64,000 nucleotides of DNA from Prorocentrum cordatum (Eukaryota), in contig CAUYUJ010000239.1 of the NCBI GenBank assembly GCA_963575745.1, forward strand, positions 1 to 64,000, read 5' to 3'. A program made the position numbers and the translations under genes. The notes under the pieces are model-generated. The model made no database searches, was not told where the DNA came from, and worked only from the letters and a program-made list of their open reading frames with translations. Positions within the stretch are counted from its first letter, which is position 1. The number at the start of each line of letters is the position of its first letter. Below are positions 8,551 through 50,060 of the stretch, piece by piece.

Positions 8551-8552
<2 letters not shown>

Positions 8553-9289: not shown

Positions 9290-9291
9290 GG

Positions 9292-9325
<34 letters not shown>

Positions 9326-16599: not shown

Positions 16600-17000
16600 C
16601 CATGCCTATAGCCCTACAGCCCTATACCCCTATAGACCTACAGCCCCCCTATAGCCCTATAGCCCTATAGTCTCATGCACCAATCGCCCAATGAGCTACA
16701 GCCCTATAGCCTTACAGCCCTATAGCCCTATAGCCCTACAGCAATCTAGCCCTCTAACCCTCTAGCCTTCGAGCCCTCTAGGCCTCCAGCCCTATAGCCC
16801 TATAGCCCTACAGCAATCTAGCCCAATAGCCCTATATAGCCTTATAGCCCAATAACCCTATAGCCCTGTAGCCCTGAAGCCCTATAGCCCTGTATCCCTA
16901 TGGCTAAATAGCCCTAGCCCTATAGCCCCACAGCCCAATAGCCCTATGGCCCTCTAGCCATCTAGCCCTCTAGCACCATAGCCCTATAACCCCACAGCCC
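16600..17000. repeat. Degenerate (TATAGCCC)n 8-mer minisatellite
   Basis: Direct reading. Confidence 0.9.
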
Positions 17001-20000: not shown

Positions 20001-21480
20001 GCCCCACGAGGGCCCGAAGAGAGGCCAAGAGGAAGAACACGAACCGAAAATCATATCTTTCCGCCCCGAGAGGCCCCCAGAAGCCCCTAGAAGCCCCCAA
20101 GCGGCCCAAAAGAGCCCCCAATAAGCCTCACGAGGCCCGCAAGAGGCCCAAAAGAGGCCCCAGAACGGCCCCCAAGACGCTTCTCTAACAGGCTCAGCCA
20201 CGCCCCTAAACAGTTCCCAAGACGCCGACGAGTCCCCAAATAGCGCCCAAGAAGCACACGACACGTCAACCGTAGACTCCCCGCCTCTTCTGGTGGTCGG
20301 CGGAAAGGCGGAAGCCTCTTGAATATCTGTATTGAGCAATTGTAAAGGAGGCAGAGAGGGAGAGGAGAAGAAAGGGAGAGGGGGAGAAGCGAGGGAAGAG
20401 TAGAATGGAGCGGGGCGAAATAGGGATGGGCGAAAAAGAGAACACACAAGCGGAGAGGAAAGGGGAAGAGGGGGAAGCGGGGACATGGGGAGGACAGTGG
20501 GGACGAGGAGGGGATGGGGGAGATGTAAAGCGGGTTTGGAGAGAGAGCGGTAAAGAGAAAGAGAGTGTGTGTGCGTACGGGCATGTGCGGCGAGTGAGGC
20601 GGAAAGAAGGGTAAGGAGGGAGAGAGAAAGACGAGAACTGTTGGAGGAAAGGGGGGGCGGGACGAGAAGGAGAAAGAAAGAGAGAGAGAGAGAAGAAAAA
20701 AAAATGGACGGAGGCACAGAATCCTGTCTCGTCCTTATCTTCCACGCCCCCTTCCACCTCCAGCTGTTCATCATCACCCTCTCCCCACTACTCCGACTGC
20801 TCCTCTGCATCCTGCGTCTGTTACGTTTCCTCCACCTCCACCTCCTCCTCCTCCTCCTCCTTCTCCTCCTCCTCCTCTTCCTCCTCCTCCTCCTCCTCAT
20901 TATCCTCCTCATTTTCCTCCTCCTCCTCCTCCTCCTCCTCCTCCTCCTCCTCCTCCTGTTCCTTTTCCTTTTCCTTTTCCTTCTCCCCCTCATCATTGAC
21001 CTCGTTTTCCGCACCGTTCTCCGACTGACATGCTTGCACTCGTCGTTTCGTCGCTTCCCTCCGTTTTGCCAAAGAAATCCTGCGGATTGCGCATCGCCAA
21101 CCACGACTTGCCAGGGTCCACGGCGTCATCCTGAAGGGCAGCCTCAAGCACGGTGGCGAAGAGATTCGCGCCCTTTTCTGGGGGGGGGCGAGCACAAGAA
21201 GGAAAGGAAAAGAAGGACGAGGAAAAGGAGGACGAGGACGAGGAGGAGGGGAAGGAGAAGGAGGAGGAGGAGAAAACAGAGGAGGTCGAATCCCCGGGCC
21301 CCTTGGGGCCAACAAGCTGTGTGGCATCCCTCTTCCCTGCACAAGTTCTGGCGTGAACGTTTCCAGCGTTCGAACTGCAGGCTGTCTGGCTCAAGCAGCT
21401 TTGCCTCGTGGCAGAACACACGAGGACGCCAGGCCGAAACCCGCCCCACTGCGCACAGGACACCCCAGAATACAACATAT

Positions 21481-21668
21481 TCGCGTTCCCGAAACCAGAA
21501 GCCCTCCTAATGTACGACGCGAACCCGCCCGCGAGACCAGAGTCCCCCATACATTACGACACGCTCGCGCCCCCGAAGCCACACACGCTTGTAGTGCTGG
21601 AAAAAGCTCGCGTTCCCGAACCCACAGCCCATTACAAATTACATCGCGTTCGCCCACCCGAAGCCCTT
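21481..21668 (+). repeat. Five degenerate copies of a 42-bp unit, core TCGCG(T/C)(T/C)CCCGAA-CCA
   Basis: Cores start at 21481, 21523, 21565, 21608 and 21650. Confidence 0.65.
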
Positions 21669-22756
21669 TGCGCGCGCCCCCCTACCCCCGACGCGAAGAG
21701 AGGGGTTGAGGGGCCGCTCTTTCTTGAGCAACAAAGAGCTGCAGGATGCCGGGTCTCCGCCCGAGCAGTCGACTTAAAATTTGGCATAAACCTAGTTACA
21801 AGCACGCCCACCAACCAAATATTCCTATCTTAATAATCTCACACCAGGAAACTGACACCGAAGGGTCCCACCCACCCCCAATAGGATTTGGCGGCCCACT
21901 GGAGACTCCTGGACCGCCACGGGGGCCTCCCGGACCTCGACTTCGGCCCCCCAGACCCCCTTGATGGCTTCGAGCAATTGCCGAGACGGCCCAAAAACGC
22001 TCCAAGACGGCTCAAGATAACCTCAAGACGGCCCCATGGGCAGCCAACGAGCCCACAAGGGCTTCAAGCGCCCCCCGAACAGCCCCCCGAGAGGCTGAGA
22101 TCGATCAAGAACCTATAGGAAATTGATAATTTCCGCCTTCTAACTTGATCGCCTCTTATCAGCCTCCGCGGCCTCAATGCGGCATCCAAGAAGCCCCCAA
22201 AGAGGCCCAAAAGGTCCCCAACAGGCCCCAAGAAGCCCCCAAAGGCCCCCAAGAACACCTGCAAGGATTCCAGAAGGCTCTGCAAATACCCCCCAAAGCC
22301 CCCAAGAGGCCCCCAAAAGGCTCCCAAGAGGCCCCAAGAGGTCCCCTGGAACGCCCCGAAGCCCCGTAAAGGCCCCCAAAGCCCCCCTACATATTGCAAG
22401 AGGCCCCAGTGCCACTCCGAACCACCCCCGAACTCCCACAAAAGCCTACCAGCTCTCCTTCCTGCTCTTCCTAACCGCCTCTCCCGAACGCTACCTCGCA
22501 CCGCGAATCCCAGACGGACTTCCACCTCCAAAATACCACAAGCGCCCCAACATGTTCATCTAGCCTTCATACTCAAATGGTGGTCCGTATCCTTCCGAGA
22601 CCGTCTTCAGAGCCTACCGGCTCTCCTCTTTCCCTTCTTACCACCCCTGCCCATTCCCTCCCACCTCCCCACGCCGCTCCCCCGCGCTCTCCATGGTCCC
22701 TCCTGCCATGCCGGCCGCTGCTGCAGGCTCAAGCCTTATCGCGTGACGGCCGTCAA

Positions 22757-25700
22757 ATGCCACCGAAGCGCTCAACCTTGACTTGCACGCAATGCCATCG
22801 ATGCTTGGACACGTCTGCCTTTTCGGCCACGCAGTTGCACTCTTCATCTCGGACAGCCCGATGCAAGGAGTGCTGCTCCACCGCTAATGCCCCTGTACTT
22901 CTGCGACCCTGCGCCAGCTGCGGGACAGAGCTCGCGCAGGCTGAGTACGCGCCGGACCAGTGGCGACGAAGTGCCCGCAAATGTTTGACCTGCACAAGAG
23001 CCGCGCTTCAGCGTAGCGGGGCACTTAGACAGCATACCGACATCGTCTGCTCCAGGTGCGGCGTCTGCTGGCCCACCGACATGTTTCCACGGCGGGCCCC
23101 GAAGCGGGTTGGCCCAGTTTGCTTCAACTGTGCCGCGCCCGCCCCCGACGGCGGCCGCCCACCGTCGACCCTCGCCTCCATTTCTTTGGGGGACATGTCC
23201 ACCCAATGCGACCACTGCGGCGCACTTTTGTTCAACTCGGAGTCAAAAACGTTCTGTTGTAATGCCGGGAAGTACTTCGTCAACTTTGACACCTATTTCC
23301 AATGCCCCGACAAACCCCTCTGCGACATCTTCGCCTCCCACTGGCCGCTCACAGACGACCGCGGAGACAAGATGCACGACACCACCACCAACGAGCTTCG
23401 GTGCACTGGCTTCACGGCGCAGCCCAGGCGGTACAACAGCCTCTTCGCCCTCGCACAACACGAAATCCAGCGCAGCACTGGAGACAAAGAGCTTCGATTC
23501 GGAGACGCCCGCCGGCCAGCAAACATCCGTATCCATGGGACGATTTACCGACGCGCATTCTCTATGGCTGACCAGGTCCCTCTGCGATACCTGGTGCACG
23601 ATCCGTAAGACCGCTTCGTCACCGCCGCGGCGCACGGCCTCAACAAGCAGACCACCAAACAACTCGAACAGCTCATAGTGCCGAGAAATGCCCACATGCG
23701 TATGATTCAGCGTTTGGCCCGCCAGTCCAAACAAGCAGCAGACGCGAATATCATCTTGGAGTGGCACGAAGGAGTCAACGAAGTGGCTGGAATACTGGAC
23801 GTCGACCCCACCCCTGACCGCAACAAAAGGTCCATCGTCTTCACATACAAGCTCCACGACACGCCGTCCTACTTGCACCCGCTGAGCCCGTTTCACGAAC
23901 CCTTGAGTTACCCCCTGTGGTACCCGTTAGGCGGCCGCGGCTGGAGCACAGACGTCATCAGCGCCACCGGCCACAAGGTAACACAAATGTGGTGGCATCG
24001 CCAACAATTGCTCCGACTCCCCCACATGCACCTTTGCGGACGGCTGCTCAACGAGTGGCTCATCAACATGTTCACGCGCATGGAAGACGAGAGGTTCTCC
24101 CACATCCGTCATCAACAACGACAGCGTAGCGCCACTCGCCAGGAGCTCTGCGAGGTGCTCGCCAACGACCCCGCCAAGGCCGGAACGGTTGGCAAACAGT
24201 ACGTTCTGCCATCGAGCGTCCCAGGATCACCTCGCCATCTTCGCCGACTGCGCGCTGACGCCCTGGAGCTGGCGCGACGCAAAGGCCCGCCGTCGTTCTT
24301 CATCACGTTGACTTGCAACCCCTACTGGCCAGAGATTGTGGGTCAACTGCACCGCGGACAAACCGCCGCCGACAGACCCGACATCGTCGTCCGCGTCTTT
24401 CACGACCGGCTGCAGAAGATCGTCGCTTTCTTGAAGGATTCTTTCTGCGGGGCTCGCCGTTACCTCATCAAAGTGATCGAGTACCAGCTCCGCGGCCTTC
24501 CACATGCGCACATCGCTCTGGCTGTCCTCAACCCGCCCGCCACTCCGGACGAGGTCGACCTTCTCATCTCCTGCGAGCTACCCCGCGAAGACGGACGACT
24601 CCGCGAACTCGTCCTTCGCCACATGGTCCACAGCTGCAACCATTCTTGCCACCCTCAAGACCCCGCTCAAGACTGCGTGAAAGGATGCCCCTGGCCGTTT
24701 CCGGACGACAGGGTCTTCGACGCGCGCGGCTACCCCCACCACCGGCGGCGACCATGCGGCGGCCACTGCCCGAATTGCCGATCTGGCCAGGCCATGTACG
24801 GGAAACACGACGTCTGCCTCAATCGGCTCATCGTCGAATACAGCCCCGTGGTGCTTCAACTCTGGGAGGGGCACGCCAACGTCAAGTACGCAGCGACGGT
24901 GGAACTCTTCGAATACCTATACAAATATTTGTTCAAAGGCCCTTCCAAGACGAACTACGACGTCACGCTAGATGCGAAGGTTGCCGACGAGATTTCCGAG
25001 TGGCTCAAAAGCAGATATCTGTGCGCAACGGAGGCAGCATGGCGCATGTTCGGATACAACACCTACGACAGATGGCCGCACGTCGTCTGCTTGCCCGTGC
25101 ACCTGCCCGGACAACAATGGATTGTTTTCGCGGAAGGAGAGGAGGCCAATGCGCTTGAAGCCCACGTGTCACCACTTCAACGGTACTTCTACCGACCCGC
25201 GGGTCCACCGTTCGACGCATTGGCCTACCACGAGTACTTTGAAACCTACATGACGTCCCCATCGTGCCCATCGCAGGCCGCTGCCGTGTTGGACCGCGCC
25301 CCTCCGCCAAAACAGTTCTTCGTGTACCCGAGGCTGCGTGGCGAGCCCCCGTTGTGCCGCCTCGAGATGAAGTTCCCGAAGCAAGGCGACGTCTTCTACC
25401 TCCGACACATCCTGCTGAACTTCCCCAAGGCGTCCTTTGCCGATTGCAGGACGCACAACGGCAAGGTGTATCCTACTTACGAGGAGACGCTACGGGCCAC
25501 GGGCCAATTCGTCCGCGACGACGAAGCCCACGCCGTGCTCGACGAGCTCATTGCGCTCCGGTACACTGCAGCCCAACCTCGCTTCGCGTTCCTGGTTCTA
25601 CTCGAACAAGATGCCGCCCCCGTGTCTCTCTACCGCAAGTACGAACGACCGCGTATGAAGGACTTCCTGGACCGAGGTCTCGGCGTCCGCGCCGCCCAGA

Positions 25701-27320
25701 AAAATCCCCTGGCCCTGCTGCGAGCCACCTGGCTGCAGAACGGCAACAGCGACGAAAATTGGAAGCTGGGCGAGATCACTGACGGGGCTCCCGCCGACGC
25801 TACCGCAGGGCCCCCCTCAGATACTACAACGCCTACCCCCACCCCGACGACCGCTCTGCTCGCCCGCATTCGCCAATGCCCCGGGCAACGCACAGCTTAC
25901 GACCACATTCTCACTTGCTGCCACCGGCGTCGCGAAGCCTTCGTGTTTGTGGAAGGCCGCGCGGGCACAGGGAAGACTACGTTGGCTACCTGCCTCACGC
26001 AAGCTCTCGAAGCCGATGGGCACCAGGTACTCAACGTGGCTACCACGGGGCAGGCCGCCCTCTTGCAGCCTCACGGCACCACGGCACATTCCGCCTTCGC
26101 CATTCCAGCGCACGACGACGCCGAATTCACGTGCTCTTTATCAATGACGTCGGCCCAAGCCATTACAATATGCAAGGCCACTTTGATCCAGTGGGATGAA
26201 TTCCCTTCTGCAAGAAAAGCAGCGTAGGACGCCGTTATTGCATTGCTGCGCGCACTCGCCGATCGTTACCCGGACACATACGTCCCGAAGACCTTCGTCG
26301 GATACGGGGACTGCAAGCAAATCCCACCAGTCGTCCCCAAAGGGACTCGGCAATCCATCGTCTCCAGCAGCGTCCGCTCCTCAGCTTCATGGCCCCAGTT
26401 CGCCATTTTCACGTTGGACCGAGTGCACCGCCAGGCAGACGATCGGCATTTCGCAGCATGGCTGGACACCATCGGCCCCGGTGACGCGCCGACGATAACC
26501 AACCACAGGCAGCCCTGGCAACTTCAAGCTGCACGACATCGCCACCGCCCCATCCGAAGACGACGCCCTCAAGTACTGCTTCCCCGCGCCGAATGACCCG
26601 CACCAGTGCGCCGAATCCAAAGTTCTCGCCGTCCTCAATTCTCTCGTGGACGCCTACAACGAACGCATGCTGAACCTGCTGGCGCGCACCTACCAGTGCC
26701 CTTCGCATCGTGCCCTCAGCGCGGACACGCTCGACATCGATGCCGCGGGAGCAGTTGAACAACACATCACCGCCGAATTCCTCAACCTCCAGACCTCCCC
26801 CGGCGCTCCCCCCCACTGTCTGCACCTCGTGGAAGGGGCCCTCTACGAACTGATGCGGAACTTCAACCCAAAAGACCGCCTCATGAACAGGGTCCCCGTG
26901 ATACTTCGCAAAGTCCACACTCACCACGTGCTGATAGAGACCCTCGACGGTCGGGCATTCCCCCTCCCACGGATCACGTTTCGATGGCAGATCGTCAACG
27001 GCACTTCCACGATGGCTCGTCGACAGTACCCTTTACGACCAGCTTATGCATCCACCTACAACTCTGCACAAGGACGTACCCTATCCAGCATGGTGCTGGA
27101 CGTGCGCCACAACCCGTTCAGCCACGGCCACCTGTATGCCGCCCTCACCCGGGCGCGGCACCGCTCTGATATTCGTGCGCTCGCTTCGCCCGACCACGTG
27201 GACACAGACGGCTGGGCCATCGTGAAGAACATTGTTTGGCCTGAGCTGTTGTTGGCCGTACCCACGAAGAGTTCCAGGCGACCTCGCCCAGCCATGAAGA
27301 GGCCTGCGTCCTCCCGCTGA
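22757..27320 (+). pseudogene. Helitron RepHel transposase (HUH Y2 Rep plus Pif1 SF1B helicase), disrupted by two in-frame stops (23606-23608, 26225-26227) and a frameshift near 26500
   Basis: Zn finger LGDMSTQCDHCGALLF..FCCNAGK; Rep motifs FFITLTCNPYWPEI, VIEYQLRGLPHAHI, YLYKYLFKG; helicase motifs EGRAGTGKTT, ATTGQAA, TAHSAF, IQWDEF, GDCKQIPPV, RRQYPLRPAYASTYNSAQGRTL, FSHGHLYAALTR. Likely start MPPKRS at 22757. Confidence 0.95.
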
Positions 27321-27939
27321 CCAGAGGACCAGAGGCCCTCGTGTTTCGACTCGTCTCACCCCGCGCGCAGCCCACAAACGCAGATTTCTCGTCCTCGTCC
27401 TCGTCATCGTCTTCTCCCTCCCCATCTCTCCTGTCATTCTCCCTTCCGCCGTCGCCCCCGCAACCTTCCCCCCCCCTCCGTCTTCGACGCGTCGTTTCTC
27501 CAGGGCCCCCGCGAACCTCCCCAAACTCCTAGGAGACCCCAACCGGCCCCCAACGCACGCCACCAATCCCCGAGCACCCCGGCACCCCGATGGGTCCCCA
27601 CGAAACACCATGAGGCTCCCAGCGGCCCGCAAATGCCCCCAAGCCCGCGAAAGCCCCAAGAGACAATACTAGAAAGCCCCCGTCACCCCCCCAACCCCCG
27701 CACCCACATAGAATACGCTGGTCACGATTCCTTCTCCTCCTCCTCCTCCCCCCCCTCCACTTCCCCCCCCTTCCCGCGGTGCTTGCCTGCAACGGTGACC
27801 CGCCACGCGGCTTCCAGCGAACGGGATCGGCCAAGGCTGGATCAAACAGTGCGTGTGTGGTATTTAACGTGCCCGTTCGGCATCGTGGAACCCATCGCGT
27901 GCTTTGGGGCCTCTCCGTCATCTGCTCCTCGCCTTCGGC

Positions 27940-29290
27940 GGCGGGGACACACATACATTCACCAGCCAGATTTCCAGGGACAGCTTCCGGGGAGATTATA
28001 CCAGTTGGCTTACGCCATTCCGCTGACACCCAGAAGGAGTGGAACCTTGCGACGGCCGTGGAATTCCCTGATAGCCTTCAACCTCACCCTTGCCACCGTG
28101 CCTGGGCTATCGGTCGGGAACTCTTCACTTCATATGAGGGTCTCTTGAGGTGCCCCGGAGGGTGCTCCTGAACAGCTCCTGGGGCCATCTGGCAAGTGTC
28201 TTGCGTCCTCTTCGAGGTTCTGGGGCCTTCTCGGGGCTCTTCGGCCGTTTTGGAGGCCTTTTGAATCCCTCCTTGCTCACCAGTCTGTGTGCGTATCCCT
28301 CGCAACGTCCACGCACCCAGATCCATGCACCACACCTGCATGCATATATGAGCACATCAGCCGCCATTTGCGGCGACAGCTTCCGGGGAGATTATACTAT
28401 TTGGCTTCCGTCGTTCCGCCGACCTTCAGAAGGATTTCAGGACTTGCGACGATGATGGAAATCATATGGTGGCACTCGGCCAAACCCGCACGAGCGTCGC
28501 TGGCCTCATGGTCAAGACCTTTCTGATGAACATGAGGGTCTGTTGAGATACCTCCGAGGGGTCTCTGGGACATACCGTCGCTACGTCCACCACGCAGTTC
28601 GATGCTACAAACATGCATGCACACATGTATTCATCAGCCAGACTTCCAGGGACAGCTTCCAGGGAGATTATACCCACTGGCTTACGCCATTCCGCTGACA
28701 CCCCGAAGAGTGAGCCCTTGCTACGCCGCAGAACTTACCCGGTGGCCTTCGGCGAAACCCTTGCCACCGTGCCTGGGCTGTCGGTCAGGAACCTCTTGAA
28801 TTAATATCAGGGTCTCTTGGGATACCTCGGCGGCCCTCCTGGAGAGCTCTCGGGGCCATCTGGCAAGTGTCTTGCGCCCTCTTGGAGGCTCCGGGGCCTT
28901 CAGGGCTCGCTGGGGCCGTCTCGGAAGCCTCTTCGGACCCTTCCCTGCTCACCAGTCTGTCTGCATATCTCTCTCAACGTCCACGCACACAGATGCCTGC
29001 ACCACACGTGCATGCACACATACACACGTCAATCGGCATTCGCGGGGACAGCTTCCGGGAAGATTATACGATTTGGCTTACGCCCCGCCGACCTCCAGAA
29101 GGATTAAGACCTTGCGACGATGGTTGAAATTATCTGGTGGCGCTCGGCCACCCCCGCGCCACCGTGCCTAGGCTGTTGGTCAGGACCTTCTCAATGAACA
29201 TGGCGGTCTGTTGGGGTGCCTCAGAAGGGCTCTTGGAGGCATCTCGGAGCTTCGTTGCGGCCTCTGAGAGCCTCCCGTGCCTCTGGGGAG
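27940..29290 (+). repeat. Diverged 2 x 672-bp tandem duplication, each copy built of related 396- and 276-bp subunits
   Basis: GACAGCTTCC(G/A)GG(G/A)AGATTATA anchors at 27978, 28374, 28650 and 29046, with homologous flanks. Confidence 0.8.
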
Positions 29291-29806
29291 CTTCTCGAGT
29301 CTGTCTTCGAGACCTCTTCTAACCTCTACACCGCGCATCGGGGGCCCCTGCGGGGCCATTCGGATCATCATCGGGAGAGACGCTCGAAACGACAGGTCGC
29401 CCCGACCTCGACGCCCGAAACGACACCCGCAACGTCCCTACGGACGCCTTAATACGAACAACGCGCAACAACGAAACATACACGTTCAAAGATTATGTTT
29501 TCACACGCGCGTGGATCTCTGCCTGCGCCGACGAGTGCAACCTGTTTGTTCGAAGCCCCCATCGCTGACACGTGCGTCGGTCCCTGCCAGCGCCGACGAG
29601 TGCAACCCCTTTGTTCGAAGGCCCATTCTCTGGACAGCTTCCGGGCTAATTACTTGCCTTCCCCTGCCTTACGACCGTCGGCCCATCTGGAGTCGGTATT
29701 TGACAGCCCCGAGCCCAACATCAGCCACCAAAGGACGAACATGTAACAATGAACATCGTCGCGGTGTGTCCACCAGACGCCTGTGCCCATTCCCCCCTCA
29801 TGATTC

Positions 29807-29828
29807 TCCGTAGCCATTTTTGCTCAGG
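29807..29828 (+). promoter_or_regulatory. Relic dinoflagellate spliced leader (DinoSL)
   Basis: TCCGTAGCCATTTTTGCTCAGG versus DCCGTAGCCATTTTGGCTCAAG: 20 of 22 match; 43 nt upstream of ATG 29872. Confidence 0.9.
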
Positions 29829-29871
29829 CTCCGGCGCGGATTGCTAGTCTGTTCGTCCCCGCTCGTGCTCA

Positions 29872-31685
29872 ATGCGCGCCTCACGGTGCCTCCAACTTCT
29901 GGCATTCTGCATTCTTTGTTTCACATCGTGCTGGGCGGCACGTTCCTCTTCGGACTCCGACTCGGAGTCAGACGCGTCCGTGTTTGGAGACGGGGTGCCT
30001 GTGGCTTCTTCCGCATGCACTGTTGCCCGAACCTTCTCAGCAACCCCGTCGGACGCTAAGTTTTATCAGCGCTCCTGTGGCGAAGTCCCCGTCTCACAAC
30101 CTCTGTTCAGTTGTTTAGACCATATGCGATGGGTAAAGCTGGTGCAACTTTGGTGCGACATCCACGGGTTTCACGAATTTCCTTTCTGCTGCGTGCTACA
30201 AACCTGCAGCCGGCCCATGAATGCTCTTACCGCCCCATGCGGGCCACAGTCGGGTCCACGCCCTCGGGTGCGAGGCCGAGGCCACACTTTCGAGTCGCCA
30301 TCTGAGTTCGTGCGCCGAAGCACCAAAGGCCTTCTGGACATCAAGAATTACGGGTTCAACAATTATGCATCAGGCTTCGACTATACCAACATGTTCCTGG
30401 ACATCGTCACTGGCGCGGCGTCGTCTCACGCGCAAGTTCTGCTCAACATGTTCGTTTGTAAGGTATGGCTCAACCACGGGTCTTTTTTCGCCATGTTCTT
30501 GATAGCATACGCTTATGTGCAGACGCAACCGCGCCAGGTGAAACTTCCACGTTTGGTGGAGAGGTTCCGACAGCACCTTTCGTCTTACCTGTCGGCCCAG
30601 AGCCTTCGAGATGCGTCATTCGCCGCCGTGCTCACATCTGAGAACATGGATATACACATGATGCTCCAAGCCGCGGCTATTCGTTGGCTTCTCCACAGCC
30701 GCAAACAAGCAAGAACCGGGTACAATATAGGATCTTTTGCGAATGAGACTCCGCTGGCACATCCTCGTGTCCGGTACATCAAGCTGCGAACTCGACGCAG
30801 GAATGGTTGGAAGCATATCCAACGGCCGGTCCTCGACGGCGTTCACATCCCTCGCAAATTTGTCCTGGTTCTGCCTCGGTTGGAACGACTGCGACAATTG
30901 CTGCTTAGCAATACCCCATTTGAAATCGCATACGGAAGGCTGCCGCCGACGCGTCCCACACCCAGGACCCCCCACGCTGATGTTTCCGTGGTCCGCCCGC
31001 TCGCTATGGCGAGCATCCCAGAAGGCCCCGTGACCCCTTCCCCGACGCCCCTAAGAAAGCTACGCAATGCCAAGCACGGCTCCCTTTTTCATTAGACATG
31101 TTCTCCAAGCCGCCATCGCGGGGGCCTGCGCGAGCGGGCCGCGGATCCACGCTGCCATGCCAGGTAGGTCCGTTTGTGGCCATGCAGATTCTCAATGCGT
31201 TCCACCGGAATGCTTTGTCGTGCAAGCTCTCAGGCACGTCTATCATCACGCGGCTCTGCGAAAGGAGGCAGATATATCCTGGCCCTGGGACACGCGTCTT
31301 GCTAGGATTGCGCGGGTTCCCCAGCGGGCTCAAGGGCAAGAAGAAGAAGGCGCCATCCTCCCGCATGCAAAACACATTGGACCGGCGCGACGCATTAATG
31401 CGCGACGCCGCGTTCGCAGAAATGGCATCCCAGTGGGGGCCGACAGGCAAGCGGGCGGCCGAATTGCTCGGCATGGCTCACCTGCGTAGCTGCGGCTTTG
31501 CCGAAGAAAGCACGGTCTGCGAGATCGGGTCCAATTTATCTCGGTCGCGAAAGCGCGCCCGCGCCTCGCACTGGCCAGACGATATCCGCGATGGCTTCGT
31601 GCTGTCATTGCGCGCACTGTGTTTCGCAGAGCGTCGGGCTCTCTGGACGCGCTTGGCCCGGCGCAAGGTCGCCGAGGTCGTCTGA
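29872..31685 (+). pseudogene. Frameshift-split gene (29872-31095 plus 31098-31685) resembling the 5-hmdU DNA kinase helical domain / aGPT-Pplase1 family (HhH-GPD-related)
   Basis: N-part YGFNNYASGFDYTNMFL...VLLNMFVCKVWLN; C-part VGPFVAMQILN...YPGPGTRVLLGL...EESTVCEIG. The order matches my recollection of the family pattern Y-F-N..R..D / F..FN / GPF.AYQ / GPGA..GL / E..LCE. Recognised by eye only. Confidence 0.6.
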
Positions 31686-32910
31686 GCGCAGCCCCGTGCA
31701 CAGTTTTTTGCAGACCCGACAGACAGAATGACCCCGCAAACAAAAAAGCACGCGCCTGCCGTGCACGAGAGAAAGGAAGACGGAAAAGAGGGCGAGGAGG
31801 AGGAGGAGGACGACGAGGAGGAGGAGAAGGGCAGGCAGGAGCAAGAGCAAAGGAGAAGCAGCATTTGTAGGACAGCTTCCGGCGCAATCCACACCTTCGT
31901 GGACCATCGGACCAGACATGGCAACATGGCGCCGCTGATATGGAAATCGCTTCTCGGGAGCTTCCAGGCGAATCCGGAAAAGGAAAGGAAATGATACGAA
32001 GAAGAGGAGGAGGAGGACGACGAGGAGGAGGGGGGAGGAGGAGGGAACAGGCAGGAGCAAGAGCAAACGGGGGGGGGCAGCAGAAAGAGAACGCAGCATT
32101 TTTAGGACAGCTTCCGGCGCAATCAACACCCTCGTGGAACATCGGAACGAACATGGCGCCGATGACATGGACATCGGTTTCGGGGGCTTCCAGGGGAATC
32201 CTCCCCCCCCGATGCCAAACAAAAACAACCCTCTCCATTGAGGCGCGCCTGGCTGTTTACACGGCCATCTCAAATACGCTTGGCACGTGTGCCGCGCGAT
32301 TTTTTGGGCGCCCCATCTCGCGGGCAAAGGGGTACATAATCGTCAGTTGTTTTGTCCCGATTGGCATTGTCTGGGCGACTCCCAGGGCAGTAACCTACCT
32401 CCAGGACAGCCAGAGAAATTCCACGCCCAACGGCAAGGCAACTCTCGGGACAGCTTCCGGGGGATTTCACTAGCCAATCCCCCCCCCCCTCCATGGCAGC
32501 CGAACGACAACTTGGACCCGCCTTGGGACAGCGATTTCTGAGACAGCTTCCGGGCAGATTCGGCGGGCGCGCGTCTCCGGCTCGGGGCCCAAATTTATTT
32601 TCCTACCTGCGCGATTGCAGGCAGCCCGCCATTCGATTGTTTTCCACCGATTCTGCCTGCGCCTGATTGTGCACTCCCAATGATGCAACCCCAGCGCGGC
32701 AACGCACAAAATCGTTGTGGCTCCCCGTGCGCACACACTGCCACAGACATTATCCGGACAGCTTCCGTGCCAATAACAGTCGCCCCGCCGCCCGCGGACA
32801 ACCCCGAGCTCCCCGCAGCATCTGGCCCGCAGCTCCTCAAGCAGCTTTGCGCTCACCAACGTCCGACCGCCAACTCGGCAGCCCCCCCCCGCCGCGCGTC
32901 CCAGCTCGCC

Positions 32911-33749
32911 ATGGCCCGAAGGGCTCGAACGCGACTTACGAGTACGCCCCGGAGCAGACCGCAGCCACCACTGCGAAGGCGGCAGACGCGGGGAAGAACC
33001 GCGACTACGTGTCGCTCTACACGGAACACATCCACATCGAGCTCCTTGACATCAACAAGAAGAAAGCGAACGGGGTCCGCGTCACCATCGCCGACGGCGC
33101 GAGCTTGCGCTTCCGCGAGGAGCGCAAGACCCACGGCCTCACCACGCTGTGGAAGGACGCCGTCGCCGTCCACGACTTGGACGAGGCCCCCGCTGGCGTC
33201 CAGATCGCGCAGTGTGGCTTCACCAGGGCGCTCAGCAAGGGCAACCCGAATCCGAGCTGGGCCAACGTCCACGTGGCATTCGGCCAGTCCGCCCGCGCCA
33301 CAGCCAACGCGCAGAAGCACGTGCTGCAGACCACCGCAGACCTACTCCAGCACAGCTACATCGAAGCCGATTTCGTCGTGCCGCCGACGGGGAAACACAA
33401 CGGTTTCACAGTCTCCAGCGTCCGCGACCAGAACCGTGTCCAGCTCACTCGGTCCTTCAAGATGCTCGACGGCACCGACCGCACGGTCACGGAGTTGCAC
33501 AACTTCTGCGTCGTCGTCGCCAAGAACATCCCCGAGAAGATCCTCGCGCCGCTGCGCAGCCTGCAGAAGAAGTACCCGCAGTTCATCACGTGGACCACGT
33601 GTGACCCGAACACGGCCATGGTGGACACCGTCCCTTCTGCCCTGACCGCCAAGGCGCCGGCCGCCCCCACGTCCGGCAAGAAGCGCCCGGCGGCGGCCGC
33701 CGTCGGCGGTGCCGTCACGAAGAAGCCCGCCAAGAGGGCGAAGAACTGA
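32911..33749 (+). CDS. Intronless hypothetical protein (~280 aa) with basic C-terminal tail; start probably MAPK with a 1-nt indel
   Basis: Very strong G/C third-position bias and a globular-looking sequence; GCCATGGCCCGAAG would read M-A-P-K with one more C; tail KKRPAAAAVGGAVTKKPAKRAKN. Confidence 0.8.
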
Positions 33750-34317
33750 CGTGAGGTCTGCAGCACGCCGCTTCCACGCGCATCCGCTGGCCCCTGCTAG
33801 CCTTCCTTTTTCTCGGCACTCGTGCCGGTGCGATATTTGCCCGGCAACCACTCCCTCTACTCCCCCCCCGCCAGTAGGATCGCCTGCTCAGCGAGCCCGC
33901 ACCGCGCTCGCTTGCCAGCACCGTCGTGGCCACTTTTTGTGCGCCAGAGGACCGATAAATGACCCTCGCCGCAACCCTCACTCCTCATCTCTCGCATGCG
34001 CGTTCCCAGAGCATCCCCCCGGACACCTTCAGAGGCAATCACGGCGCCCTGAAACGACAGAGACGAAAAAGTGCAACACACATTGAAGGAGAAACTTAGG
34101 ACAGCTTCCGGGCTAATTCTTCCTGTCGTTAGTGATGGCACCCGCCCTTCTGCACCCTCGCACGCGCACGCCCACCCGCGCGCGCGCGCGCGCGCCCCCG
34201 TCGTCCTCGTGCCGGCGTGTCTTGCGATGTTCGTCCAGTTCTCGGCCCTGCGCACACTTCCTTGCACAGCCCAACGGCCGCCTTCGGCCCACGCCTCACT
34301 CCCACCATGCACTATAC

Positions 34318-34354
34318 CAAGACTTTCAAGCGAAGCGCAGCGAGCTTCAAGTCT

Positions 34355-34356
<2 letters not shown>
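34318..34356 (+). terminator. Candidate Helitron 3' terminal hairpin
   Basis: CAAGACTT-tcaagc-GAAGC-gcagcga-GCTTC-AAGTCTTG: a 13-bp bulged stem ending in CTTG just before (TA)n. Confidence 0.55.
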
Positions 34357-34403
<47 letters not shown>

Positions 34404-34503
34404 NNNNNNNNNNNNNNNNNNNNNNNNNNNNNNNNNNNNNNNNNNNNNNNNNNNNNNNNNNNNNNNNNNNNNNNNNNNNNNNNNNNNNNNNNNNNNNNNN
34501 NNN
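34404..34503. other. Assembly gap (100 N)
   Basis: Run of N; adjacency across it is not proven. Confidence 1.
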
Positions 34504-34537
34504 GTGCGTGTGTGCTGTGTGCGTGTGTGGGTGTGTG

Positions 34538-34570
<33 letters not shown>

Positions 34571-34586
34571 GCGCGGGCGCGTGCGC

Positions 34587-34646
<60 letters not shown>

Positions 34647-34689
34647 GCGCGCGTGCGCGTGTGCGTGTGCGTGTGCGTGTGCGTGTGCG

Positions 34690-34734
<45 letters not shown>

Positions 34735-34750
34735 GCGCGGGCGCGTGCGC

Positions 34751-34810
<60 letters not shown>

Positions 34811-34900
34811 GCGCGCGTGCGCGTGTGCGTGTGCGTGTGCGTGTGCGTGTGCGTGTGCGTGTGCGTGTGCGTGTGTGTGTGTGCGTGTGCGTGTGTGTGT
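34504..34900. repeat. (GCGT)n/(GT)n microsatellite
   Basis: Direct reading. Confidence 0.95.
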
Positions 34901-34964
34901 TTGTCTGTAATTCTTAATATCTATAAATATGAATGTAAATATAACAAATAAGAAAAACATCTAG

Positions 34965-37900
34965 CACCTCTCCCTGGGCGCTGGACGCGTCTCGGCCTCC
35001 AGCCGAAAAGCTCGAGCAGGGCACCATATTTGCGGTCTCTTCCGCGGGCCTCCCGCGGACCTTCCGCGGGGCTAACCGCCGGGGCAGGCGCGGGAACTCC
35101 CGCTGTCAAAGTCGGCTCAGCTTCGGCTGTCGCAGTGTTTCCTGCGACCATCCGTCTAGCTCCCGTCGTGGATCCCTTGAGAGCTCTCGGGACGATCTCG
35201 GCACTCGCTCTTGAGCGCCTCGACAACTTCTGCGCGGCCTCAGGGGTGCTCAAGTCCTGGAGGTTGATCCTGATCAGGGGTCTGCGCGCCGTGGCATATA
35301 CTCTCAACTGGTCGATATTATTGGCCCGTCTGTCAGACAGCACGCTGCCCTTCTCGAGCAACCTCGTGATCAAGTCGCTCTTGAGACCAGACACGCGCAG
35401 GCCGCTGGCTCTCCAGATCCGATTCAAGTCGACCGAGAAACGCGTTGAAAAAGCTTGCGCCTCGCTCCTCCGCCCAGTCGCGTTGAACGTGGCTCTGAGC
35501 CAAGTCCTGTCTTGACCTCCTTGTCGGGCGTACCCTGCTGGAAGTCGGCGCGCCCAGGTGCGGGGCGAACCGTTTCCTGGATCAGGTCCGTCGCGAGGTA
35601 GCTCTTGCCGCAGCATGCGCACACGAATCCTAGAACGAACACCGCAGCGATCACCACGAAGACTCTCGTCTTCAGGGTGATCCGGAACTCCTCTCTTCCC
35701 ACGTGGCGAAGCACAGGAGCGGGGCAAACCGCGGCCTGAGCTGGCTCCTCGGACACCGCCCCCTTCTCGCCTGACGGAGAAATCACGACTTCTGGTCTAG
35801 AACGGCGCAGCGCCTGAACATCTTCGACCACTCGCTGTACTCGGCGAAGATGCGCGCAATCATCTCGTCGGTATCCTCCTTCAGGAGTTCGAGCGCCTTG
35901 AGTCGCAACCGCTCCCGTACACGTAGGAACCTCAGCTCTAGGTGCCTGACCTTGCCCACGCCCTCTCGCGAACGCATGCCCCGCCCAGCGGCGCTGTAAC
36001 TATAGATCCTCTGGTTGCTGGGCCGTTGGGTCTCGATCAGGCACGTCTTGCACTGGAGCCCTCAGGCAGTCGCACTGCCTGTGGCATACATCTCGGAGCC
36101 CCCTGAGCTCAGGGCAATCATACCCTGCGTCACCGAGTAGCAGTCCCACGCACGATCCCCGTTGCGCACAGCTACTCCACTCGTGGATCGCCCCTGCAAC
36201 TCGCTCGCAGGTGCCCAGTCTGCATCTCCATCCACACAGATGCCTTCAGGAGTGCCCGGCAAAGGGTAGCATGAGATTAGCACGGGTTTGCCTTCGCAGT
36301 ACCTCCCAAGCCGCTGAAACCTCGCATGCATCAAGGACATCGGGGTTAGAGACGGGCTGCAGGCTGCATCGTGGCCCTGCTGGCGCACATCAAGTCGAGC
36401 CTGTCCAAAGAAAGGTAAAGCGCCGCGCCCGCCGCACCTGCAATTTCCCAAGCTGGGTCCCTGGAGAGAAAGTCCAAACTGTCTCATCGGCCTTGTCCTG
36501 TCGCTTTCGTTCCTGGAGTGGGAACTGCCTTGCACCCTCGCTGCTGCGCCCGTTGGATCATGCAATCCACGTGCTTCGGACCTGCTGTCCAGGAGAAGCC
36601 TAGATCCCCAGAGCCCGGTAGCTGGTCTGTGTAACTGGCAATCCTCTTGAGGTACTTCGTCTGCCCAGGTCATCCTGCACCCAGTCTGGCGATCGCTGTG
36701 ACCTCGAACTGCTGCTTCAGCATCTCGCCCAGCTCGTCTAGCTGCTCGTCATGGCCTTCGGCCAGGCAGTCGTCTCCGCGGCTGATCGCCGTGGAGTCCT
36801 CGTCGGAGGCAAAGACGTTGAGGTCGCTGGCGGGTAGAAGACTTTAGACGTCGCCATCAACGCCATCAAGCAACCCCAGTGAGCGTCGTCCACGGTGGCC
36901 CTTACCATCTCTCCCCACATCTGCGAGGCCTTCCTGGCGCCGTTCATTGCCCTGCGGAGCCACCAGCACCGTCCAGGAGGGCACAACTGGCGCCCAGGAT
37001 GCACGTAGATCACCTCGTCGAGGTCGGCCATGAAGAAAGCCGGCCTGACGCCCCAGACCTGGATCATCCGGTGGTGCTCGCCTGTGCAAGCATGGCTCGA
37101 CGCGGCACGGTTTCGCGTCGCTTCCACTATCATGAGCGGCGGCGTGCCTTGATGGTTGTCCTCGCGCACCTCGTGTTTGTTGATCTCTGTCGCCACGAAC
37201 CTCCACCTGACCCTCCCCTGTCCATGTGGGCGATGGTGAAGCCTCCGATATGATTGCCATCGGTCGCTGTCGGCGTCGCAACCTCCACGTAGACGCCGTA
37301 GTCCTTCATGGCTTGCAGCTCGTCATCGCGACCTTCCTGGTACATATCCTCGTCCAAGGGCTCTCCAACGCAGTAACCGTAATGCATCGCACTTGGGCTC
37401 CATTGGTCGTGTTCGTGCAACTCGGCGCTGACATCAACCAGCTGCTCAATATGCTCGTCGTCTGGATCGCCGAAGTAACTCCTTACCGTGCCGATGTTGC
37501 TCATCAGGCAGCGCCTGCATGCAAACTCACACCGGTGGCATTCTCTCATCTGGCATCTTGACACACGCTTCTCGCCCCATCCAGGAGATCCTGGAGCTTC
37601 GCTTCGGGCATGGATCCCACGTTGGGTCGAAGCTCGCGTCGTAGCCTTCCTCACAGACTGCTAGCTCGCAGACAGAGAGCATGCCGATGGATGCTACTCT
37701 CGGCTTCTTGACCTCCAGCTCTGGCCTCTCCTCTCCAATGGCAGCTCGCTGGAAGTCGCCCCTTATATGTTCGGGCTCCGTCTGCATGGCAATCTCTGCC
37801 TCTTCTGAGACAGAAGGCATGGCCAAGGCAGCCACAGCAGGGGCGGCAGGCCCCGCGACCTCACTGCTGCTCGATGCCGCTGCTGGTCCAGCTGCTAGCC

Positions 37901-37982: not shown

Positions 37983-42640
<4,658 letters not shown>

Positions 42641-49329: not shown

Positions 49330-50060
49330 GGGTCCGCGTCCGCCACGGAGGGGCATCCGTTTTTCGGGTGCCCTCCAGAGTAGCGCCGTGGAAGCGCTTT
49401 GCAGTGTCGAAGTTTTGGTTTGATGTGTGGTATCATCACTGATGCTGAGCCGTTGCTGGTGTCCTTGCTTAACAGGCGTCCGACCATGTGGCCTTGTGTT
49501 CGGGCACAGTAATGGTAACCCGTTGTTTGGGTTCCCTCCTGGGTCCGCGTCCGCCACAGAGGGGCATCCGTGTTCGGATGCCCCTCCAGAGTAGCGCCGT
49601 AGAAGCGCTTTGCCGTGTCGAAGACTTGGTTTGTGGTGTGGTGTCACATCACTGATGCTGAGGCGTTGCTGGTGTCGTTGCGTAACAAGCGTGCGGCCAT
49701 GTGGCCTTGTGTTCGAGCACAGTGATGGGAACCCGTTTTGGGGGTTCCCTCCTGGGTCCGCGTCCGCCACGGAGGGGCATCCGTTTTTTGGATGCCCCTC
49801 CAGAGTAGCGCCGTGGAAGCGCTTCGCAGTGTCGAAGTTTTGGTTTGTTGTGTGGTATCATCACTGATGCTGAGCCGTTGCTGGTGTCCTTGCGCAACAG
49901 GCGTCCGACCATGTGGCCTTGTGTTCGGGCACAGTGATGGTAACCCGTTTTTTGGGTTCCCTCCTGGGCCCGCGTCCGCCACAGAGGGGCATCCTTTTTT
50001 GGATGCCCCTCCAGAGTAGCGCCGTGGAAGTGCTTTGCAGTGTCGAAGACTTGGTTTGTG
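49330..50060 (+). repeat. Tandem repeat, about 3.4 x 212 bp
   Basis: GGG(T/C)CCGCGTCCGCCAC anchors at 49330, 49541, 49754 and 49966. Confidence 0.9.

What the first reader, a model, noticed from the sequence alone, without database searches (positions are those of the whole stretch)
27978..34111. Eleven same-strand copies of GGACAGCTTCCGG-N3-(A/G)AT punctuating the cargo region
Seen: copies at 27978, 28374, 28650, 29046, 29632, 31870, 32105, 32448, 32541, 32756 and 34099, each with at most one mismatch, all intergenic and on the + strand, most followed by AAT or GAT. Some lie in local duplications, but those at 29632, 32448, 32541, 32756 and 34099 have unrelated flanks. The copies at 29632 and 34099 share GGACAGCTTCCGGGCTAATT and bracket both cargo genes. 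Inference: iteron-like protein-binding sites, element-specific promoter motifs, or recombination sites for cassette-like gene capture.
Basis: partly seen in the sequence, partly recalled or inferred. Interest (0 to 1): 0.75.

Follow-up and report, generated by a model that had tools for sequence, protein, structure and literature searches.

The report
Oriented repeated motif behind dinoflagellate Helitron
A 13-letter DNA word, part of a module of about 30 letters, occurs eleven times on one strand in the 6 kb behind a Helitron transposase gene of a dinoflagellate and is kept far better than its surroundings, so it looks like a recognition site, but what reads it is not known.

Summary
GGACAGCTTCCGG (at most 1 mismatch) occurs 11 times, all on the + strand, all within 27978-34111, against 0.17 expected. 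There are no further copies at up to 1 mismatch in the other 58 kb.

Six copies lie in two local tandem duplications and five have unrelated flanks, giving 7 independent contexts. The conserved unit is an unstructured module of about 30 nt: A(t)T-N4-core-G-NN-(a)AT(t).

It is not a hairpin, not a spliced-leader relic and not an Rfam RNA, and it lies in non-coding DNA. Inside the 4-copy array it is the best-kept block (p=0.0004).

The window is dinoflagellate DNA (Prorocentrum cordatum-like). The array starts 658 nt behind a RepHel gene and punctuates a retrogene that carries a spliced-leader relic and a member of an orphan protein family with a wider spread.

The motif is absent from 79 related Helitron loci. 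The one relative with downstream sequence has the same layout with its own 11-mer repeats.

Best reading: a constrained, orientation-dependent recognition site. It is most likely cis-regulatory for the tail genes, with RepHel binding as the main rival. Genome-wide counts and RNA evidence could not be obtained. The scan's earlier notes held no look-alike on other DNA.

The parts
22577..27320 (+). RepHel (Helitron Rep plus PIF1-type helicase) gene. This copy has two in-frame stops (TAA at 23606, TAG at 26225) and a frameshift near 26490-26505.
   Evidence: Pfam gives PF14214 at 1.3e-40 and PF05970 at 1.4e-23. tblastn with the intact 1818-aa RepHel of L048 aligns its residues 324-1817 to 22760-27299. 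The stop codons were read. Contigs of run X1 read C at 23606 and carry 2 extra bases at 26504.
27978..27990 (+). motif copy 1 (exact), in tandem unit G1
28374..28386 (+). motif copy 2 (1 mismatch), in G1
28650..28662 (+). motif copy 3 (1 mismatch), in G1
29046..29058 (+). motif copy 4 (exact), in G1
27948..29330 (+). G1: a tandem array of 396+276 bp units (672-bp period). Each unit is headed by the motif, and the long units also hold an inverted piece of the CCCCAAGAGGC satellite.
   Evidence: the repeat finder families D14-D19; alignment A3; inverted satellite match scoring 36 against a null maximum of 19.5
29632..29644 (+). motif copy 5 (exact) with unrelated flanks. It lies 174 nt upstream of the spliced-leader relic and 240 nt upstream of the ATG at 29872.
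29806..29828 (+). Dinoflagellate spliced-leader relic (2 mismatches over the 21 positions compared), marking gene 1 as a retrocopy
   Evidence: script scan; sequence read
29872..31685 (+). Gene 1: ORFs 29872-31095 and 31098-31685 in different frames. It is probably one gene that is broken or split here.
   Evidence: ORFs. Homologues at 39% identity, P0005 (525 aa) and P0006. The C-terminal stretch of P0005 shown looked by eye like the end of the second ORF; this was not aligned.
31870..31882 (+). motif copy 6 (exact), in tandem unit G2
32105..32117 (+). motif copy 7 (exact), in G2
32448..32460 (+). motif copy 8 (exact), unrelated flanks
32541..32553 (+). motif copy 9 (1 mismatch), unrelated flanks
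32756..32768 (+). motif copy 10 (1 mismatch), unrelated flanks, 155 nt upstream of the ATG at 32911
32911..33749 (+). Gene 2: an orphan-family protein of about 280 aa with a basic C-terminal tail. In the window it is shifted out of frame by one base just after the ATG.
   Evidence: Four P. cordatum paralogues at 95, 89, 77 and 61% identity. An X1 contig has an extra C behind 32914, which joins the ATG to the long frame. GC3 is 0.90-0.93.
34099..34111 (+). motif copy 11 (exact). Its 20 nt are identical to the copy at 29632.
34313..34362 (+). Imperfect hairpin abutting a (TA)22 microsatellite. It is a possible end of the element, but unproven.
   Evidence: DNA fold of -10.9 kcal/mol, z -2.83, with 1 of 200 shuffles folding as well; (TA)22 at 34359-34403

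Best explanation
The motif is the core of a module of about 30 nt (A(t)T-N4-GGACAGCTTCCGG-G-NN-(a)AT(t)). A sequence-specific factor reads it in one orientation, and selection keeps it. It sits in the non-coding stretches of a same-strand gene cluster that follows a Helitron RepHel gene in a Prorocentrum-type dinoflagellate.

The most likely role is cis-regulatory, meaning a promoter-proximal or RNA-processing signal for the genes in the tail. On this reading five copies precede the retrogene at 29872, five precede the gene at 32911 and one follows it. Copy number grew by local tandem duplication.

Shown: the copies, their strand, their clustering, their independence from flanks, their better conservation, and the absence of structure.

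Inferred: that a protein (or RNA) binds them, and that the effect is on transcription or RNA processing.

My odds are about 0.7 that the module is a functional recognition site of some kind. Within that, about 0.35 overall that it is cis-regulatory for expression.
For: There are 11 copies against 0.17 expected, all on the + strand.

Seven independent contexts are all on the strand of RepHel and of both tail genes, a two-sided binomial of 0.016 (my arithmetic). All lie within 6.1 kb of a 64-kb window.

In five copies the flanks are at shuffle level while the core is 13/13 or 12/13. Neutral decay of one old repeat cannot give this.

The 'N' positions vary between copies while the core does not. 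That is the pattern of a binding site.

In the 4-copy array the module is the best-kept 20-nt block of the unit, with 18 of 20 columns invariant. The core has 11 of 13 invariant columns against 118 of 264 elsewhere (Fisher p=0.005). The 30-nt module has 23 of 30 against 106 of 247 (p=0.0004).

Positions fit upstream elements. The copy at 29632 is 174 nt before the spliced-leader relic of gene 1. The copies at 32448, 32541 and 32756 are 463, 370 and 155 nt before the ATG of gene 2.

The array lies in DNA without coding periodicity.
Against: RepHel itself has no copy upstream. Neither do the other + strand ORFs of the window, such as the PPR gene at 3630 and the ORFs at 53981-58339. If it is a promoter element, it is private to this locus.

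Four copies (G1) lie 580 nt or more from any ORF with coding signal.

No RNA run was available, so no transcript start or leader-addition site has been seen. Nothing is known about dinoflagellate promoters to compare with.

The better conservation inside G1 rests on 4 sequences and could partly reflect gene conversion.

The related element L048 carries its own repeats right behind RepHel. That fits a transposase-linked role as well as a regulatory one.
Confidence: 0.35

Rival explanations
1. The copies are RepHel-recognition repeats (iteron-like). The module is bound by the Helitron's own Rep/helicase, or by its zinc-finger N-terminus, on one DNA strand, and serves transposition (loading, pausing or end choice) rather than gene expression.
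For: The array begins 658 nt behind the RepHel stop. It ends about 200 nt before a hairpin that abuts (TA)22.

L048 and L054 (RepHel 58-59% identical in the best segment) are, by their matching repeat positions, one element and the only relative with downstream sequence. It shows the same layout. RepHel stops near 5686. Then come four clusters of tandem 11-mers of the ATAACGGAAGG type at 6065-6895, then a perfect spliced-leader relic and an ORF. Eleven of 13 + strand CGGAAG hexamers of that 12-kb locus lie in those 820 bp.

The motif differs between the two elements, as expected if site and protein co-evolve. Both contain CGGAAG, but in opposite orientation.

Strand specificity is natural for an enzyme that acts on single-stranded DNA.
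Against: Iterons are not described for Helitrons (recalled; the listing shows no paper on it).

Copies are scattered over 6 kb and between genes, not packed at an end. None lies on the 5' side of RepHel. No hairpin or nick-site context is present. The ends of the element are not established.

The parallel rests on one other element, whose clusters have partly homologous flanks. A shared hexamer is weak evidence, roughly 2-5% by chance by my estimate.
Confidence: 0.25
2. The copies are junction scars of a copying or recombination process. The module is a site at which segments were repeatedly joined, for example a cassette-type recombination site, a long target-site duplication of serial insertions, or repeated template switching at one microhomology. 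Unrelated segments therefore ended up separated by the same word.
For: Unrelated segments of 93 to 2238 bp lie between successive copies, all in one orientation.

The copies at 29632 and 34099 are identical over 20 nt and bracket both genes.

Gene 1 is demonstrably an insertion, a retrocopy with a leader relic.
Against: The leader relic starts 162 nt after the end of the 13-mer at 29632 and does not abut it. I saw no matching duplication at the retrocopy's ends by eye.

No recombinase is evident: of the 16 long ORFs scanned against Pfam, transposon-type domains were found only in the two RepHel pieces.

No isolated half-sites stand out. 'N' positions differ between copies, unlike fresh duplications. 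No palindrome or hairpin is present.
Confidence: 0.15
3. The copies are remnants of one ordinary tandem repeat, without function, broken up by later insertions and decay.
For: Six of 11 copies do sit in tandem duplications with homologous flanks. Tandem arrays inside or next to Helitron-type elements are common (recalled). Weak extra motif-like sites occur inside the 235-bp unit.
Against: Five copies keep 12-13 of 13 core bases while their flanks are no more alike than shuffles. In the array itself the core is kept better than the rest of the unit. Equal neutral decay cannot produce either result.
Confidence: 0.12
4. The module is the start of a small repeated leader exon or non-coding RNA gene. 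In G1 the conserved block runs about 60 nt, from the motif to CAGAAG|GA, which could be an exon end.
For: In alignment A3 conservation extends from the motif through about 60 columns and drops after ...CAGAAGGA. P. cordatum uses GT, GC and GA donors (passage of PMC10666404).
Against: There is no Rfam match in 17000-36000 at E up to 1 near any copy. No stable fold is predicted. The 60-nt block is not shared by the copies outside G1. No RNA data are available.
Confidence: 0.05

Closest known systems
Repeat array behind the RepHel gene of metagenome loci L048/L054
   Same: The order of parts is the same: a RepHel ORF, then a low-complexity spacer of a few hundred nt, then about four modules 90-410 bp apart that each carry a short same-strand word, then a spliced-leader relic and an ORF.
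   Different: The word is different, being tandem 11-mers of the ATAACGGAAGG type. It is confined to 830 bp, and the cluster flanks are partly homologous. There is no sequence homology to the window outside RepHel. The shared hexamer has the opposite orientation.
Internal tandem repeats of Helentron/Helitron-derived elements (DINE-1, HINE, oyster satellite-carrying elements); recalled, not read here
   Same: A rolling-circle-type element carries an internal array of short tandem units. G1 and G2 here are such arrays.
   Different: There the units are whole repeats with homologous sequence throughout. Here five copies share only a module of about 30 nt, and they are spread between genes.
Subterminal transposase-binding repeats of cut-and-paste transposons (Ac/Ds, En/Spm, P); recalled
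   Same: Many copies of a short word sit within one element and are recognised by the element's own protein.
   Different: Those repeats sit within a few hundred bp of both ends, often in both orientations. Here there is one orientation, a 6-kb spread, one side of the transposase gene only, and a different enzyme class.
Iterons of rolling-circle replicons (geminiviruses, plasmids); recalled
   Same: Direct repeats specific to one Rep lineage, with strand polarity.
   Different: Iterons lie next to the origin hairpin and nick site. No hairpin accompanies these copies, and the spacing is hundreds to thousands of bp.
Homotypic clusters of transcription-factor sites or promoter-proximal elements
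   Same: Several copies of one conserved word lie upstream of genes, with a fixed core and free flanks.
   Different: No dinoflagellate promoter element of this kind is on record in my searches (listings only). The strict single orientation and the absence from neighbouring genes are unusual.
Relic spliced leaders in front of dinoflagellate retrogenes
   Same: Short same-strand words in front of genes in this genome. One true relic lies in the region, at 29806-29828.
   Different: The sequence upstream of the motif aligns to the leader no better than background: scores 4-7 against a background median of 4 and a 95th percentile of 7.

Membership tests
Helitron (RepHel-encoding rolling-circle transposon), for the element that the array follows | Rep (HUH) domain of the Helitron_like_N type | tested here: met
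   PF14214 at E 1.3e-40 in ORF 23678-26227
Helitron (RepHel-encoding rolling-circle transposon), for the element that the array follows | PIF1-type helicase fused behind Rep | tested here: met
   PF05970 at E 1.4e-23. Colinear with residues 324-1817 of the intact 1818-aa RepHel of L048.
Helitron (RepHel-encoding rolling-circle transposon), for the element that the array follows | Defined ends: 5' TC, and 3' CTRR preceded by a hairpin, inserted at A|T | tested here: inconclusive
   A hairpin at 34313-34362 abuts (TA)22, but no CTRR follows it and no 5' end was found. Whether 27.3-34.4 kb belongs to the element is therefore open.
Helitron 3' terminus (as a reading of the motif) | Stable hairpin a few nt upstream of the end | tested here: not met
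   All 11 copies were folded as DNA with 38 nt upstream and 20 nt downstream. Z-scores ran from -1.50 to +1.72 and no common stem was found.
Iterons of rolling-circle replicons | Direct repeats adjacent to an origin hairpin or nick site | tested here: not met
   No hairpin at or near the copies. Spacing is 93-2238 bp.
Iterons of rolling-circle replicons | Bound by the cognate Rep | not testable with these tools
   Needs a binding assay.
Relic dinoflagellate spliced leader | Sequence similarity to the 22-nt leader | tested here: not met
   Local alignment scores are 4-7 for the 11 copies, against a background median of 4 and a 95th percentile of 7 over 18276 windows.
Plain tandem satellite | All copies embedded in homologous repeat units | tested here: not met
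   Met for 6 copies (G1, G2). Not met for 29632, 32448, 32541, 32756 and 34099.
Cassette recombination sites (attC-like) | Imperfect palindrome able to fold | tested here: not met
   The core pairs only as GGA/TCC (3 bp).
Cassette recombination sites (attC-like) | Cognate recombinase gene next to the array | tested here: inconclusive
   Of 16 long ORFs scanned against Pfam, transposon-type domains were found only in the two RepHel pieces. Shorter or split genes were not examined.
Known RNA families (Rfam 15) | Covariance-model match | tested here: not met
   In 17000-36000 at E up to 1 there were two unrelated weak hits, neither at a motif copy.

The most novel reading that the evidence does not exclude
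Dinoflagellate Helitrons of this lineage carry, directly behind RepHel, lineage-specific arrays of a short oriented word that the element's own RepHel reads. Such 'Helitron iterons' would co-evolve with the protein (GGACAGCTTCCGG here, ATAACGGAAGG-type 11-mers in L048). In this element they have spread between retro-inserted genes, so they mark where host retrocopies were taken into the element. That would be the first internal cis-site system for a eukaryotic rolling-circle transposon.
Probability: 0.2. Interest if true: 0.75.

Novelty: new variant of a known kind. Interest (0 to 1): 0.45.

Why it matters
Almost nothing is known about what directs transcription, RNA processing or transposition in dinoflagellate genomes. 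No internal cis-sites are described for Helitrons beyond their two ends.

A short, oriented word that stays intact while everything around it changes gives a concrete handle. It could be used as bait to fish for the factor that reads it, either the RepHel itself or a host protein. It could also be counted in the roughly 4-Gb genome to see which genes or elements share it.

If it proves to be a private regulatory element, it would be one of the first candidate dinoflagellate promoter elements. If it proves to be RepHel-bound, it would change how Helitron gene acquisition is pictured.

If neither holds, it remains a well-documented local oddity.

Tried and rejected
Whole-genome count: no genome is held for this window.

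RNA evidence: no RNA holder was listed. The four runs laid were all contigs, so there were no starts, ends or strands. Those contigs cover 22306-34139 at about 99% identity in run X1 and show no joints at motif positions among the rows printed; 32 joint rows were not shown.

Public collections:
- The motif with N3-RAT in viral contigs gave 47 single hits on both strands, one per contig, which I take as chance level.
- Relatives of gene 2 in metagenome contigs: none.
- 79 loci of RepHel relatives (431 kb): 0 hits at up to 1 mismatch, 8 at 2 mismatches, and no profile hit below E 3.

Homology of the downstream or upstream DNA to the 8 closest loci: none beyond a low-complexity match. The spacers of the window and of L048 are not alignable.

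Other readings of the motif that were rejected:
- Hairpin.
- Spliced-leader relic.
- Rfam family.
- Half-sites standing alone.

Identity of the tail genes:
- Pfam gave nothing for either gene.
- The protein atlas gave nothing.
- A profile search against PDB sequences gave nothing.
- The first fold with 5 sequences was useless, at pLDDT 30.
- A second fold with 25 sequences was confident (pLDDT 82.7) but found no convincing fold: Foldseek TM up to 0.15, and VIA-align best Z 6.3 among ribosomal, eRF1-middle and RNase H-like folds, below the level that means more than a common arrangement.
- The ORF behind L048's array is unrelated to either window gene.

Earlier notes of this scan: no look-alike of the motif region, the G1 unit or gene 2.

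Literature:
- The two 11-mers occur in 93 papers. The 15 listed are primers in unrelated work (listing only).
- 'dinoflagellate' + 'Helitron' gave 34 papers, none in the listing on cis-motifs.
- 'dinoflagellate' + 'promoter motif' + 'intergenic' gave 6 papers, none relevant by title or abstract.
- In the P. cordatum genome paper I read only the passages found for 'motif', 'spliced leader', 'promoter' and 'Helitron'. It has no occurrence of 'Helitron' or 'promoter'.


Full report
**Observation.** The 13-mer GGACAGCTTCCGG occurs 11 times at up to 1 mismatch (7 exact, 4 with one mismatch), at exactly the coordinates given. All copies are on the + strand. Shuffles give 0.17 expected, and 0 of 100 reached 11. 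Relaxing to 3 mismatches adds only chance-level hits, 28 found against 26.2 expected. A profile of the 32-nt module finds nothing else in the 64 kb except three weak sites (E 0.13-0.49), two of them inside the 235-bp duplicated unit. All copies lie within 27978-34111, which is 6.1 kb of a 64-kb window.

**Anatomy of the copies.** I compared 120 nt on each side with the core left out.
- 27978, 28374, 28650 and 29046 belong to a tandem array of 396+276 bp units (G1).
- 31870 and 32105 belong to a 235-bp tandem (G2).
- 29632, 32756 and 34099 score at shuffle level against everything else.
- 32448 and 32541 score against each other only because their test windows overlap physically.

This gives seven independent contexts, all on one strand. 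Lining up one copy per context shows a module of about 30 nt: A(t)T, four free positions, the 13-mer, a G, two free positions, then (a)AT(t). The free positions differ between copies while the core does not. The copies at 29632 and 34099 are identical over 20 nt.

**What the module is not.**
- It is not a hairpin. Each copy was folded as single-stranded DNA with 38 nt upstream and 20 nt downstream; z-scores ran from -1.50 to +1.72 and no stem was shared.
- It is not a worn spliced leader. The upstream sequence aligns to the leader with scores of 4-7, against a background median of 4 and a 95th percentile of 7.
- It matches no Rfam family.
- It lies in DNA without third-position GC periodicity, whereas RepHel and the gene at 32911 show strong periodicity.

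**Conservation.** In the four-unit alignment of G1 the module is the best-kept block of the whole unit. The best 20-column window has 18 invariant columns and lies on the motif. The core has 11 of 13 invariant columns against 118 of 264 elsewhere (one-sided Fisher p=0.005). The 30-nt module has 23 of 30 against 106 of 247 (p=0.0004). The five copies with unrelated flanks keep 12-13 of 13 core bases. Taken together, this argues against neutral remnants of one old repeat.

**Surroundings.**
- The window is dinoflagellate DNA. The gene at 32911 has four named Prorocentrum cordatum paralogues, and earlier notes of this scan on the same genome say the same.
- ORFs 22577-27320 encode a Helitron RepHel: PF14214 at 1.3e-40 and PF05970 at 1.4e-23. 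It is colinear with residues 324-1817 of an intact 1818-aa RepHel from metagenome locus L048.
- The window's copy is slightly damaged. It has in-frame TAA at 23606 and TAG at 26225 and a frameshift near 26500.
- Contigs of run X1, about 99% identical over 22306-34139, read C at 23606 and have two extra bases at 26504. They also have an extra C behind 32914, which puts the ATG at 32911 in frame with the long ORF. A more intact version of the whole region therefore exists.
- Depth in that run is similar over RepHel (12-46) and the tail (8-26). The region thus looks low-copy at 85% identity or more, although contig depth is a poor measure. The CCCCAAGAGGC-type satellite at 22172-22607 reaches about 17,000.

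**The two tail genes.**
- Gene 1 (29872-31095 plus 31098-31685, in different frames) is preceded at 29806-29828 by a spliced-leader relic with 2 mismatches over the 21 positions compared. It therefore entered as a retrocopy of a processed mRNA. Its only relatives are two metagenome proteins at 39% identity.
- Gene 2 (32911-33749) has P. cordatum paralogues at 95, 89, 77 and 61% identity. It belongs to a wider family of about 270-aa proteins, with 51 clusters at E up to 0.001 in the representative library.
- With 25 family members the fold prediction for gene 2 is confident (pLDDT 82.7). Pfam, PDB sequence search, Foldseek and VIA-align give no convincing match, the best being Z 6.3.
- Whether these genes are Helitron cargo is open. 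I found no 5' end. At the 3' side there is only a hairpin at 34313-34362 abutting (TA)22 (z -2.83), without the canonical end motif.

**Relatives.**
- RepHel's nearest relatives are unnamed metagenome proteins at 53-68% identity.
- I fetched 79 loci (431 kb) around such genes. The motif is absent from all of them: 0 hits at up to 1 mismatch, 8 at 2 mismatches, and no profile hit below E 3.
- Only one relative element has sequence behind RepHel. It is L048, with L054 apparently a second contig of the same element, since its repeat k-mers recur at one fixed offset.
- L048 shows the same layout with different words. RepHel ends near 5686. Four clusters of tandem 11-mers of the ATAACGGAAGG type follow at 6065-6895. 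Then come a perfect spliced-leader relic at 7076-7097 and an ORF at 7174-8574, and further on four same-strand hairpins at 9201-10100.
- There is no sequence homology between the two tails, and the ORFs are unrelated.
- Both words contain CGGAAG, in opposite orientation relative to RepHel. I rate this as weak evidence.

**Interpretation.** The data show a discrete, oriented, unstructured word that is kept while its surroundings change. That is what a site read by a sequence-specific factor looks like. I put about 0.7 on the module being functional.

Which factor reads it is inferred, not shown.
- The expression reading (0.35) fits the single orientation shared with all genes, the non-coding location, and the positions 155-463 nt before gene 2 and 174 nt before the leader relic of gene 1. 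It is weakened because RepHel and the other genes of the window lack the word, and because four copies are far from any gene.
- The RepHel-binding reading (0.25) fits the position right behind RepHel, the parallel layout in L048 with a lineage-specific word, and the strand polarity of rolling-circle enzymes. It is weakened by the 6-kb spread, the absence of a hairpin or nick context, the unproven ends and the single comparison.
- A junction or recombination reading (0.15) fits the unrelated segments between copies and the 20-nt identity bracketing both genes. However, the retrocopy does not abut a copy, and no half-sites or recombinase appear.
- Plain satellite decay (0.12) explains six copies but not the other five.
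- A leader-exon or small-RNA reading (0.05) rests only on the 60-nt conserved block in G1.

**What could not be done.** No RNA run was listed and only contigs could be laid, so transcript starts and leader-addition sites are unknown. The DNA around the paralogues P0001-P0004 could not be fetched. These are the decisive data.

**Novelty and score.**
- I found nothing in print on this word or on internal cis-sites of dinoflagellate Helitrons. This rests on listings only, and on passages of PMC10666404.
- The closest known things are internal tandem repeats of Helentron-type elements, subterminal transposase-binding repeats, and iterons of rolling-circle replicons (all recalled), and homotypic clusters of regulatory sites. 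The array differs from each of these.
- I file it as a new variant of a known kind. It is real and statistically solid but functionally unresolved, and I score its interest at 0.45.

Noticed in passing
window 29806-29828: A near-perfect dinoflagellate spliced-leader relic (2 mismatches over the 21 positions compared) lies 44 nt before the ATG at 29872. This marks the 407-aa ORF as part of a retrocopy. It is the best leader-like site of the whole window.
   Followed up: partly
window 23606, 26225, ~26504, 32914: The window's copy carries two in-frame stops and a frameshift in RepHel, and a 1-base shift just after the ATG of the gene at 32911. Contigs of run X1 (about 99% identical) read C at 23606, +AT at 26504 and +C at 32914, so a more intact version exists (strain, allele, paralogue or assembly error).
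   Followed up: partly
window 22172-22607; also 18180-18710, 19970-20270, and inverted at 28130-28275, 28800-28935, 29200-29300: A degenerate satellite with a 10-11 bp period (CCCCAAGAGGC type) reaches a summed contig depth of about 17,000 in run X1. It lies upstream of RepHel in one orientation and inside the G1 units in the opposite orientation (alignment score 36 against a null maximum of 19.5).
   Followed up: partly
window 21390-21408 and 32836-32855: An 18-of-19-nt identity, CTCAAGCAGCTTTGC(G)CTC, lies upstream of RepHel and upstream of the gene at 32911. At 21375-21395 it overlaps a weak leader-like site whose last 9 nt match the spliced leader. This may be a shared 5' leader of the two transcripts, or chance.
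   Followed up: partly
window 34313-34362: An imperfect hairpin (DNA fold -10.9 kcal/mol, z -2.83) directly abuts a (TA)22 microsatellite, about 200 nt after the last motif copy. It is a possible 3' end of the element but lacks the canonical end motif.
   Followed up: partly
window 49340-50020: About 3.5 tandem units of 212 bp, each with a strong hairpin of the GGAGGGGCATCCG-loop-CGGATGCCCCTCC type. They recall the hairpin arrays behind L048's ORF and the hairpin-ended elements that earlier notes report in this genome.
   Followed up: no
window 3594-6725: Seven copies of the hairpin GAGCAGTGGCAG-CAGGCT-CTCCCACTGCTC lie inside the region of the PPR-repeat ORF (3630-6056; 16 PPR_2 stretches). 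They probably belong to the Helitron-like elements between PPR repeats described in earlier notes.
   Followed up: no
window 34965-35733 and 39618-40377: Two direct repeats of at least 770 bp at 95-97% identity lie 4.65 kb apart. Each follows long microsatellites: (GTGC)n before the first, and (CGTG)n, (TGTGTGT)n, A95 and (AC)52 before the second. This may be a segmental duplication or an LTR-like pair.
   Followed up: no
L048 6065-6895, 7076-7097, 9201-10100 (same element in L054): A metagenome Helitron (RepHel 58% identical in the best segment) carries three features. There are four clusters of tandem 11-mers (ATAACGGAAGG type) right behind RepHel. A perfect 22-nt spliced-leader relic precedes the next ORF. 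Four same-strand copies of a perfect hairpin (GTGCAAAAGCGACG/CGTCGCTTTTACAC type) follow, two of them with GCTAG about 30-36 nt after the hairpin and one with CTCTAG about 8 nt after it. These look like multiple 3' ends.
   Followed up: partly
window 32911-33749 and proteins P0001-P0004, P0117-P0166: The gene belongs to an unnamed family of about 270-aa proteins (51 clusters at E up to 0.001). The predicted fold is confident (pLDDT 82.7), but it has no Pfam match, no PDB sequence match and no clear structural match (best Z 6.3). It carries a basic C-terminal tail.
   Followed up: partly
window 18060-18085 and 19205-19230: Two copies of a leader-like word (CCGTAGGCGCTTCCGATCCAAG and CCGTAGGCATCTTCGCTCCAA) are each preceded by GGGGCGGC..ATTCG, in repeated units upstream of RepHel. 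Their meaning is unknown.
   Followed up: no
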